Virus record (IMG/VR): IMGVR_UViG_2778261065_000019
Direction: 5' to 3' (one strand)
DNA from: a virus
Taxonomy: Duplodnaviria > Heunggongvirae > Uroviricota > Caudoviricetes
Length of the DNA stretch: 11,826 bases
A model generated the notes under the pieces. That model saw only the letters and a program-made list of their open reading frames with translations, was not told where the DNA came from and ran no database searches. A program made the position numbers and the translations under genes. This document shows positions 5,852 to 6,078 of the stretch, in pieces (the stretch's first letter is position 1; the number at the start of each line of letters is the position of its first letter).

Positions 5852-6078
5852 TGTCTACCTTATCTACCTTAGTGGCCCTCATGCCAGTAATGGCGCGGCT
5901 TTCAGCGGGGTAGAGTGCTTTTATCCACTATCTACCCCGTGTCTACCTCCCTGTCTGATTCAGGTAAAATCAGGTAGAGAGGGTAGATAGTGGGTAGATA
6001 GTAAAAAAAGGCTATCTACATAACTTAATGCACTGAATTAAATGTATTTTTCTTTACTCAGGTAGACAGGGTAGACAG
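5852..6078. repeat. Iteron array / candidate replication origin
   Basis: About 11 copies of the core GGTAGA[T/C/G]AG or its complement in both orientations: CTACC-type at 5853-5859, 5862-5868, 5930-5936, 5941-5947 and 6012-6020; GGTAG-type at 5909-5915, 5973-5979, 5982-5990, 5993-6000, 6061-6069 and 6070-6078. An AT-rich spacer lies at 6001-6060. Located immediately 3' of the primase-helicase gene. Confidence 0.7.

What the first reader, a model, noticed from the sequence alone, without database searches (positions are those of the whole stretch)
5852..6078. Bipartite iteron array immediately downstream of the primase-helicase gene
About eleven GGTAGA(N)AG-type repeats are split into a left cluster mostly in one orientation and a right cluster mostly in the other, separated by an AT-rich spacer. 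This is the expected architecture for an origin melted by the adjacent replication protein and gives the island autonomous replication after excision.
Basis: partly seen in the sequence, partly recalled or inferred. Interest (0 to 1): 0.5.

Follow-up and report, generated by a model that had tools for sequence, protein, structure and literature searches.

The report
Known satellite-island replication origin (EcCICFT073 type)

Summary
The repeats are real. Ten exact GGTAGA/TCTACC hexamers plus one single-mismatch copy lie in 5854-6075, against one exact copy in the other 11.5 kb. They fill the 288-bp gap between the stop of a 584-aa replication protein (6092-7846, minus strand) and the next gene. 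That protein is 98% identical to Pri-Rep of EcCICFT073, and the gap is about 95% identical to the EcCICFT073 ori.

Two corrections apply. The AT-rich tract (6021-6060, 22.5% GC) lies inside the right cluster, not between the clusters. The protein has the helicase and origin-binding winged-helix parts of P4 alpha, but no detectable primase domain.

Comparison of about 90 related loci added detail. The origin has two modules. Module A (5973-6075) is collinear with the P4 ori. Module B (5854-5947 plus an A/T palindrome at 5826-5835) resembles a P4 crr unit. The layout is kept while the iteron sequence changes with the winged-helix domain (TGTCTACC here, TGTTCACC in P4). Interest is low.

The parts
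6092..7846 (-). rep ('pri-rep') gene, 584 aa. It has a conserved N-terminal domain of unknown function (aa 1-~125), D5_N plus an SF3 helicase P-loop (aa ~150-460), and a C-terminal winged-helix origin-binding domain (aa ~488-579).
   Evidence: Pfam D5_N, DUF5906 and Pox_D5. PDB 7OLA and 1KA8. 40% identity to P4 alpha residues 324-762 only. 98% identity to EcCICFT073 Pri-Rep.
5804..6091 (.). Whole intergenic origin region, 288 bp, 41% GC.
   Evidence: About 95% identical to the EcCICFT073 rep-to-next-gene spacer, which has the same length.
5973..6075 (-). Module A, the P4-ori-like core. Read in rep sense it is 2 iterons, a 40-bp AT-rich tract, 1 inverted iteron, an A-run, then 3 iterons.
   Evidence: Start-to-start spacing is 9/48/20/11/9 here and 10/44/21/11/10 in the P4 ori. 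It aligns collinearly with the P4 ori and three other lineages.
6061..6075 (+). Iteron pair next to the rep stop codon (GGTAGAcagGGTAGA).
   Evidence: The cores are kept in 41-43 of 43 distinct related origins.
6021..6060 (.). AT-rich tract, 22.5% GC. It is the least stable duplex in the intergenic region and the probable melting site.
   Evidence: (40-mer dG about -44, against a window mean of -55.3 with sd 4.5). Its position is conserved in all lineages.
6015..6020 (-). Inverted iteron of module A, degenerate in this window (TCTACA; on the other strand TGTAGA).
   Evidence: It reads GGTAGA in 42 of 43 related origins and in CFT073.
5973..5998 (+). Three direct iterons (5973, 5982, 5993).
5854..5947 (-). 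Module B, crr-like. Read in rep sense it is 2 iterons (5947-5931), 1 opposite iteron (5914-5909), a 40-bp GC-rich spacer, then 2 iterons (5868-5854).
   Evidence: Its distal part aligns with both 120-bp units of the P4 crr.
5869..5908 (.). GC-rich spacer of module B (60% GC). Its rep-sense strand begins CCGCTGAAAGCC, and a CTGAAA-like motif next to the single iteron recurs in most lineages and in the P4 crr.
5826..5835 (.). A/T palindrome (AAAAAGTTTT; in rep sense AAAACTTTTT) about 18 bp past the last iteron pair. A related A-tract/T-tract element is seen in most PICI lineages examined and in both P4 crr units.
5963..5968 (+). Iteron-like GGTAAA (one mismatch) between the modules. Its significance is uncertain.
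5525..5803 (-). First gene downstream of the origin (92 aa, PHROG 1231, function unknown). It is followed by an SSB gene at 5106-5528.

Best explanation
This is the vegetative replication origin of a Gram-negative phage-inducible chromosomal island (PICI) that carries the same replicon allele as EcCICFT073.

Shown here:
- Eleven copies of T(G/A)TCTACC fill the gap directly after the rep gene.
- Rep carries an SF3 helicase core and a C-terminal winged-helix domain homologous to the origin-binding domain of P4 alpha.
- The repeat sequence tracks that domain across lineages while the number, order and spacing of repeats are kept.

Shown elsewhere, for a replicon with a 98%-identical protein and about 95%-identical DNA: rep plus ori drive plasmid replication, and each is needed.

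Inferred mechanism:
1. After induction and excision, Rep hexamers bind the iterons through the winged helix.
2. Binding on both sides of the 40-bp AT-rich tract of module A (two iterons on the rep side; one inverted and three direct on the other) melts that tract.
3. The helicase loads itself there.
4. Module B binds further Rep and acts in cis as an auxiliary site, as crr does for P4. Here it is contiguous with the core instead of 4.5 kb away.
5. No primase domain is detectable, so priming is probably done by host DnaG. The island's own SSB, encoded two genes downstream, would coat the unwound strands.
For: - Enrichment: 10 of the 11 exact hexamers of the window lie in 222 bp.
- Position: the array sits between the rep stop (6092) and the next start (5803).
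- Rep domains and PDB matches: 1KA8 at E 7e-7 and 7OLA at E 6e-16.
- Homology to P4 alpha: 40% identity to residues 324-762.
- Identity to the tested EcCICFT073 replicon, and the published pri-ori, pri-delta-ori and delta-pri-ori plasmid test with its iteron/AT-rich map (PMC6092414).
- Iteron type by Rep identity: in all 66 loci whose Rep is at least 69% identical, GGTAGA is, or ties for, the commonest hexamer downstream of rep (9-12 copies; 6 in one truncated locus). Loci at or below 55% identity carry TGTTCAC(C), TGTTCAT or GGTATAC instead.
- Layout: the arrangement 2>, AT, 1<, 3>, 2<, 1>, ~40 bp, 2< recurs with four different iteron sequences.
- Co-variation: Reps of L079-L087 differ at 2-9 of the first 477 residues but at 3-11 of the last 110. 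Two wing residues (T to A/N, V to M) separate the GTGTTCA origins from the GTATACA origins.
- Selection: iteron columns are 0.91 conserved against 0.67 for the other columns in 43 distinct origins.
- Relation to P4: the P4 ori aligns with module A with six iterons in register, and the P4 crr units align with module B. The P4 record annotates these as ori type 1 repeats and as crr, the cis required region for replication.
- Packaging site: cosN lies elsewhere, at 1844 and 2583.
Against: - Nothing was tested on this exact sequence.
- The inverted iteron of module A carries a point change (TCTACA) found in none of 42 other distinct origins, so this copy could be weakened.
- In the published test, deleting ori reduced colony numbers but did not abolish them.
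- The separate roles of modules A and B, the melting site, and the source of primers are inferences from P4 and SaPI.
- The co-variation rests on few independent switches, and the conservation statistic ignores phylogenetic relatedness.
Confidence: 0.9

Rival explanations
1. The repeats are a packaging signal: binding sites for a small terminase or for Rpp, like the R elements of lambda cosB, rather than an origin.
For: The island is packaged by helper terminase redirected by Rpp (PMC6739421). Lambda cosB also consists of short repeats in mixed orientation.
Against: Exact cosN sequences (GGGCGGCGACCT) lie at 1844-1855 and 2583-2594, more than 3 kb away, and flank an Rpp homologue (6HLK, E 6.5e-31). 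These are the published cos1 and cos2. The repeat sequence follows the Rep winged-helix domain, and the array is collinear with the P4 ori.
Confidence: 0.02
2. The repeats are operator sites that control transcription of the downstream operon (hypothetical gene, ssb, capsid genes), bound by Rep or by another island regulator. Origin function would then be secondary or absent.
For: The array lies just upstream of the next gene. No terminator-like site was found between rep and that gene, so protein bound there could affect read-through. Iterons in plasmids often also act in regulation.
Against: No sigma-70-like promoter was found on the coding (minus) strand in 5500-6400. The homologous P4 ori and crr lie in different transcriptional contexts yet keep the same geometry. 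In L067, L069 and L077 the module order is swapped relative to the downstream gene. The EcCICFT073 fragment supports replication.
Confidence: 0.05
3. The origin is a symmetrical bipartite one: the left and right clusters are equivalent half-sites, and the DNA between them (5948-5972) is what melts.
For: The two clusters have opposite predominant orientation. SaPI origins are described as two iteron sets around a central AT-rich region (PMC9371898).
Against: The sequence between the clusters is 40% GC, while the only strongly AT-rich tract (22.5% GC) lies inside the right cluster. The two clusters differ in internal layout and occur in either order in related islands. In P4 they are 4.5 kb apart, as ori and crr.
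Confidence: 0.05

Closest known systems
Replication origin of EcCICFT073 and other E. coli PICIs (Fillol-Salom et al. 2018, ISME J, PMC6092414)
   Same: Same island type and gene order. Rep is 98% identical and the intergenic region has the same 288-bp length at about 95% identity, with every iteron in place. The published description is iteron sets flanking an AT-rich region directly 3' of rep, with replication depending on rep and ori.
   Different: - One iteron is mutated in this window (6015-6020).
- The integrase end of the island (9836-11826) does not align with CFT073, so this island probably has a different integrase.
- The paper calls the layout unique to PICIs. I find the same geometry in the P4 ori.
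Satellite phage P4 ori and crr with alpha protein
   Same: Rep is homologous to the helicase and winged-helix parts of alpha (40% identity; 1KA8 match). Module A is collinear with the six type I repeats of the P4 ori, and module B with a crr unit. The iteron differs from P4's TGTTCACC at only two adjacent bases (TGTCTACC). As here, crr lies directly after the alpha gene.
   Different: - The iteron sequence is not TGTTCACC.
- The ori-like and crr-like modules are contiguous here rather than 4.5 kb apart, and crr is duplicated in P4.
- P4 has a terminator between alpha and crr; none was found here.
- Alpha carries Zn-ribbon and Toprim primase domains that this protein lacks.
SaPI origins with Rep/PriRep (Ubeda 2007, 2012; Qiao et al. 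2022, PMC9371898)
   Same: The origin lies directly 3' of rep. It has 6-12 short iterons with an AT-rich region, with iterons pointing in opposite directions. The initiator is a self-loading hexameric helicase with a C-terminal winged helix. The helicase core matches PriRep5 (7OLA, E 6e-16).
   Different: The iteron sequences are unrelated, and only the helicase core is detectably homologous. The AT-rich tract is not central here, splitting the iterons 2 against 9. The host is Gram-negative.
Iteron plasmids (pSC101, R6K, F, P1, RK2 type)
   Same: Repeated initiator-binding sites sit next to an AT-rich unwinding tract.
   Different: Those origins have 17-22-bp direct repeats bound by a RepA-type initiator that lacks a helicase, and they need DnaA boxes and the host DnaB/DnaC (general knowledge). 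Here the repeats are 8-9 bp in mixed orientation, the initiator is itself an SF3 helicase, and there is no DnaA-box or IHF signal beyond chance.

Membership tests
Gram-negative PICI replication origin (EcCICFT073 type) | Lies immediately 3' of the rep (pri-rep) gene of an int-alpA island. | tested here: met
   The array starts 17 bp after the rep stop. The island also carries an integrase, AlpA, an SSB, capsid genes, Rpp and cos.
Gram-negative PICI replication origin (EcCICFT073 type) | [quoted passage not shown] | tested here: met
   Two iterons lie on one side and nine on the other side of a 40-bp tract of 22.5% GC.
Gram-negative PICI replication origin (EcCICFT073 type) | Sequence identity to a described member. 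| tested here: met
   About 95% identity over the origin and 98% over Rep against EcCICFT073.
Gram-negative PICI replication origin (EcCICFT073 type) | Rep plus ori support autonomous replication. | not testable with these tools
   Published for EcCICFT073 with plasmids pJP2027-2029 (PMC6092414). Not tested on this sequence.
Gram-negative PICI replication origin (EcCICFT073 type) | The cognate initiator recognises the iterons. | tested here: inconclusive
   There is no binding assay. Indirect support comes from a winged-helix domain homologous to 1KA8 and from iteron type co-varying with that domain.
P4 ori / crr | Type I repeat TGTTCACC. | tested here: not met
   The repeat here is T(G/A)TCTACC, two bases different. 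Related PICIs (L004, L007, L073) do carry TGTTCAC(C).
P4 ori / crr | Geometry of the six ori repeats: 2, then about 35 bp AT-rich, then 1 inverted, then 3. | tested here: met
   Spacing is 9/48/20/11/9 here against 10/44/21/11/10 in P4, and the two align collinearly.
P4 ori / crr | ori and crr are separate loci, and the initiator carries a DnaG-type primase. | tested here: not met
   The modules are contiguous here. No Zn-ribbon or Toprim domain was found, and hhalign gave 0.06% probability against the alpha primase region.
SaPI origin | Iterons 3' of rep, at least two on each side of an AT-rich region pointing in opposite directions; self-loading Rep with a C-terminal winged helix. | tested here: met
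   The layout is met and the helicase core is homologous to PriRep5. This is an architectural resemblance: the DNA shows no sequence relationship.
Lambda-type cos / cosB packaging site | cosN nicking sequence with adjacent terminase-binding repeats. | tested here: not met
   cosN is at 1844 and 2583, not in 5804-6091.
RepA-type iteron plasmid origin | 17-22-bp direct iterons, DnaA boxes and a RepA-family initiator. | tested here: not met
   The repeats are 8-9 bp in mixed orientation. There is one 8/9 DnaA-box-like site, which is not above chance. The initiator is an SF3 helicase.

The most novel reading that the evidence does not exclude
The enterobacterial PICI origin is not a layout unique to PICIs. 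It is a compact fusion of the two cis elements of satellite phage P4: module A corresponds to ori and module B to crr. The modules can be swapped in order or separated. Initiator specificity is re-targeted by one or two substitutions in the wing of the winged-helix domain matched by two-base changes in every iteron, and L081 looks like a caught intermediate with mixed iterons. In addition, the 'Pri-Rep' of this lineage has replaced the P4 primase with an unrelated 125-residue domain that recombines freely between Rep alleles, so priming would be done by the host or by an unknown activity.
Probability: 0.45. Interest if true: 0.35.

Novelty: already known. Interest (0 to 1): 0.15.

Why it matters
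For the scan, this is a correct call of an ordinary, published feature. It marks the window as a replication-competent PICI of a type present in roughly one in ten complete E. coli genomes (570 of 5426).

The comparative by-products may help specialists in three ways. They link PICI and P4 origins module by module. They offer a natural series for studying how an initiator and its iterons change specificity together. They also question the 'primase' label carried by thousands of database entries for this protein.

Tried and rejected
- **Degenerate Toprim primase in the Rep N-terminus.** MAFFT placed it against the Toprim region of Morganella alpha. However, Pfam and NCBIfam found nothing, and hhalign of a 7-sequence N-terminal profile against the alpha primase region gave 0.06% probability. 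A single-sequence AlphaFold model was poor (pLDDT 56, alternating beta/alpha), and Foldseek against the PDB gave no match below E 0.01. The question is left open.
- **Host-factor sites.** IHF consensus gave no hit in the origin, and window-wide counts were at chance. One DnaA-box-like site, TTATCCACT at 5921-5929, is not above chance and is not conserved in L045 or L053. It reads as a decayed iteron.
- **Promoter and terminator scan of 5500-6400.** It found one plus-strand promoter-like match at chance level and no terminator.
- **Rfam.** Nothing was found in the origin.
- **Homologue searches.** The single-protein scan of genome contigs returned only 3 loci, and the search for homologous proteins returned only proteins at least 98% identical. 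Diversity came instead from an alignment-based scan of IMG/VR.
- **Literature.** No paper in the held library links the PICI origin to P4 ori/crr geometry. The classic P4 papers are not in the library.

Full report
**What is in the sequence**

The hexamer GGTAGA, counted on both strands, occurs 11 times in the 11,826-bp window. Ten of those copies lie between 5854 and 6075. Dinucleotide-preserving shuffles expect 2.63 copies in the whole window, and none of 200 shuffles reaches 11. A Poisson estimate for ten or more copies in 222 bp is 2e-20. An eleventh copy at 6015-6020 reads TCTACA. It is an exact TCTACC in EcCICFT073, in strain Z1323HEC0423 and in 42 of 43 distinct related origins.

The left group (5854, 5863, 5909, 5931, 5942) has four of five copies on the minus strand. 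The right group (5973, 5982, 5993, 6015, 6061, 6070) has five of six on the plus strand.

Two details are not:
- The longer form GGTAGA(N)AG fits only six copies.
- The AT-rich tract (6021-6060, 22.5% GC, followed by an A-run at 5999-6014) lies inside the right group. The 25 bp between the groups are 40% GC, and the left group contains a 60% GC spacer.

**Context**

All genes around the array read on the minus strand:
- integrase (10585-11826)
- AlpA (9864-10070)
- a DUF4222 protein (7843-8142)
- a 584-aa replication protein (6092-7846)
- the 288-bp gap holding the repeats (5804-6091)
- a 92-aa protein of unknown function (5525-5803)
- an SSB (5106-5528)
- a lambda-E-type major capsid protein (3429-4484) and a head decoration protein

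A 501-bp query across the array finds matches in 570 of 5426 complete E. coli genomes, always on the chromosome.

The prototype Gram-negative PICI, EcCICFT073, lies between roxA and phoQ in strain CFT073 and has the same gene order. Its replication protein is 572/584 identical to the one here. Its rep-to-next-gene gap has the same length and is about 95% identical, with every repeat in place.

**What is already published**

Fillol-Salom et al. 2018 (PMC6092414) state that the region immediately 3' of the replication gene of Gram-negative PICIs has the organisation of the Gram-positive PICI origins. [quoted passage not shown] They cloned the EcCICFT073 rep-ori segment into a temperature-sensitive plasmid. 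Colonies at 44 °C required rep and were significantly reduced by deleting ori.

The staphylococcal counterparts are described as self-loading hexameric helicases. Their C-terminal winged helix binds 6-12 iterons placed just after rep, around an AT-rich region (PMC9371898).

The finding is thus a correct recognition of a known feature.

**The protein**

Pfam finds D5_N (153-284), the SF3 P-loop family DUF5906 (316-417) and Pox_D5 (487-576). Against solved structures:
- residues 173-432 match the SaPI5 PriRep5 helicase (7OLA, E 5.6e-16);
- residues 488-579 match the origin-binding winged-helix domain of P4 alpha (1KA8, E 6.9e-7).

BLASTP aligns residues 141-579 to alpha residues 324-762 at 40% identity. 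Alpha's primase part (Zn ribbon at 30-66, Toprim at 210-299) has no counterpart here.

The first ~125 residues form a conserved domain (invariant MKxAPNxK, IFAG, PPV, AGV). It has no Pfam or NCBIfam match and shows no profile similarity to the alpha primase region (hhalign probability 0.06%). A single-sequence structure model was too poor to interpret (pLDDT 56), and it had no fold match below E 0.01.

The database name 'DNA primase' comes from TIGR01613, 'primase_Cterm', which covers residues 229-495 of this protein, i.e. part of D5_N and the helicase core. 'Helicase-initiator' is what the evidence supports. Primase activity is unproven.

**Comparative test of the protein-repeat link**

I collected loci encoding relatives of the protein: three from species genomes, one induced Klebsiella element from the phage collection, P4 itself, and 80 from IMG/VR.

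In all 66 loci whose protein is at least 69% identical, GGTAGA is, or ties for, the commonest hexamer in the 330 bp after the stop codon. The count is 9-12 copies, or 6 in one truncated locus. Where identity drops to 55% or less, the commonest words become:
- GGTGAA/GTGAACA, which is the P4 type I repeat TGTTCACC;
- ATGAACA (TGTTCAT);
- GGTATAC.

The cleanest case is L079-L087. These nine proteins differ at only 2-9 of their first 477 residues but at 3-11 of the last 110. Five have GTGTTCA repeats and four have GTATACA repeats. The residues that separate the two groups consistently include two in the predicted wing (KTRGV against K/R-A/N-RGM). L081 still carries a few GTGTTCA-type copies among its GTATACA copies.

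In Rfx, a winged-helix protein aligned with 1KA8, the recognition helix and the wing make most DNA contacts (PMC2777425).

Within the GGTAGA group, iteron columns are 0.91 conserved against 0.67 for the other columns in 43 distinct origins. These sequences are related, so the p-value is only indicative.

**Anatomy**

Read in the sense of rep, the window shows this order:
1. stop codon;
2. two iterons;
3. the 40-bp AT-rich tract;
4. one inverted iteron;
5. an A-run;
6. three iterons;
7. 25 bp;
8. two inverted iterons;
9. one direct iterons;
10. a 40-bp GC-rich spacer;
11. two inverted iterons;
12. about 18 bp;
13. AAAACTTTTT.

The same order and nearly the same spacings recur with other iteron sequences in Serratia (L004), the Klebsiella element (L007), L073, L080 and L081, with a variant in Morganella (L005).

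In L067, L069 and L077 the second half comes first and the first half follows about 90 bp later. The array is therefore two modules.

Module A (5973-6075) has start-to-start spacings of 9/48/20/11/9. The six type I repeats of the P4 ori, read in reverse, give 10/44/21/11/10. The two align collinearly with all six repeats in register.

Module B (5854-5947 plus the palindrome at 5826-5835) aligns over its distal part with each 120-bp unit of the P4 crr. The aligned stretch is the single iteron, the ~40-bp spacer, the iteron pair and the A/T palindrome. The P4 record places crr directly after the alpha gene and calls it the cis required region for replication.

Aligned by position, the repeat here (CTGTCTACC) differs from P4's (CTGTTCACC) at two adjacent bases.

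**Mechanism**

*Shown:* the location, the enrichment, the homology of Rep to two characterised origin-binding helicases, the co-variation of repeat and winged helix, and near-identity to a replicon with published function.

*Inferred by analogy with P4 alpha and SaPI Rep:*
- Rep binds the iterons through its winged helix.
- Occupancy of the sites on both sides of 6021-6060 melts that tract. It is the least stable duplex of the intergenic region, with a 40-mer dG of about -44 against a window mean of -55.
- The hexameric SF3 helicase loads there.
- Module B acts as a cis auxiliary Rep-binding site, like crr.
- Host DnaG would prime, because no primase domain is detectable.

No terminator-like site was found between rep and the origin, whereas P4 has one there. 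The origin is therefore probably transcribed with the operon.

**Rivals**

- *Packaging site.* Exact cosN sequences lie at 1844-1855 and 2583-2594, inside a 65-bp inverted repeat. They flank an Rpp homologue (6HLK, E 6.5e-31) and correspond to the published cos1 and cos2 (PMC6739421). A packaging role for the iterons is therefore unlikely.
- *Transcriptional operator only.* This fits poorly with the module swap, with the P4 homology and with the plasmid test.
- *Host-factor sites.* IHF and DnaA-box scans gave nothing above chance.

**Verdict**

The feature is already known as the origin of the EcCICFT073-type PICI replicon.

The module-by-module correspondence with P4 ori and crr, the fine-scale co-variation of wing residues and iterons, and the missing primase domain are additions I did not find in the held literature. 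They refine a known system and do not reveal a new one.

Noticed in passing
window 1813-1877 and 2561-2625: A 65-bp inverted repeat (91% identical). Each arm holds an exact lambda-type cosN (GGGCGGCGACCT, at 1844 and 2583). The arms flank a 144-aa Rpp homologue (2059-2493, minus strand; 6HLK, E 6.5e-31). This matches the published cos1/cos2 plus rpp arrangement of EcCICFT073. In strain Z1323HEC0423 the segment between the arms is replaced by a gene annotated as terminase small subunit.
   Followed up: partly
window 8834-8921 and 8943-9019 (minus strand): Rfam matches above the gathering score to C4 antisense RNA (75 bits) and to the isrK Hfq-binding RNA (80 bits). In related islands this region carries a gene annotated as an Icd-like cell-division inhibitor. 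This is a P1/P7-type c4-icd immunity module inside a PICI. The 423-aa ORF at 8588-9859 that overlaps it is probably not a gene.
   Followed up: no
window 7487-7846 (Rep aa 1-120) against L073 2501-2860: The Rep is a mosaic. Its first ~120 residues are 95-100% identical to those of the L073 Rep, while the remaining ~460 residues are only 25-60% identical, and that locus uses TGTTCACC iterons. The N-terminal domain is exchanged as a cassette between Rep alleles. Its function is unknown, and no primase signature was found.
   Followed up: partly
L067, L069, L077 (400 bp after the rep stop): The two origin modules occur in the opposite order, crr-like first and then ori-like about 90 bp later. In L067 and L069 the module B spacer forms a long hairpin (CTGAAACCCTTG...CAAGGGATTCAG) that the window lineage lacks.
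   Followed up: partly
L081, L083, L085, L087 against L079, L080, L082, L084, L086: These Reps are nearly identical (97-98%) but their iterons differ (GTATACA against GTGTTCA). L081, L083 and L085 keep 2-4 GTGTTCA copies among their GTATACA copies, which looks like an origin caught partway through a specificity switch.
   Followed up: partly
window 4718-4749: A 15-bp-arm inverted repeat (AATCAGAACTGGATG tt CATCCAGTTCTGATT). On the minus strand a T-run follows it, just upstream of the capsid operon, which starts at 4690. It looks like an intrinsic terminator or an operator placed ahead of the capsid genes.
   Followed up: no
window 6015-6020: The inverted iteron of module A carries a C-to-A change (TCTACA) found in none of 42 other distinct origins of this type. 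It could be a slightly weakened origin or a sequencing error.
   Followed up: partly
window 8173-9065 and 9836-11826: These stretches do not align with EcCICFT073 or with Z1323HEC0423, although the replication and capsid modules are 93-96% identical. The integrase end therefore differs, and this island probably sits at a different attachment site.
   Followed up: no
window 2618-2654 and 5059-5096: A 38-bp direct repeat (89% identical). One copy lies beside the cos copy at 2583 and the other just downstream of the ssb gene. It is unexplained.
   Followed up: no
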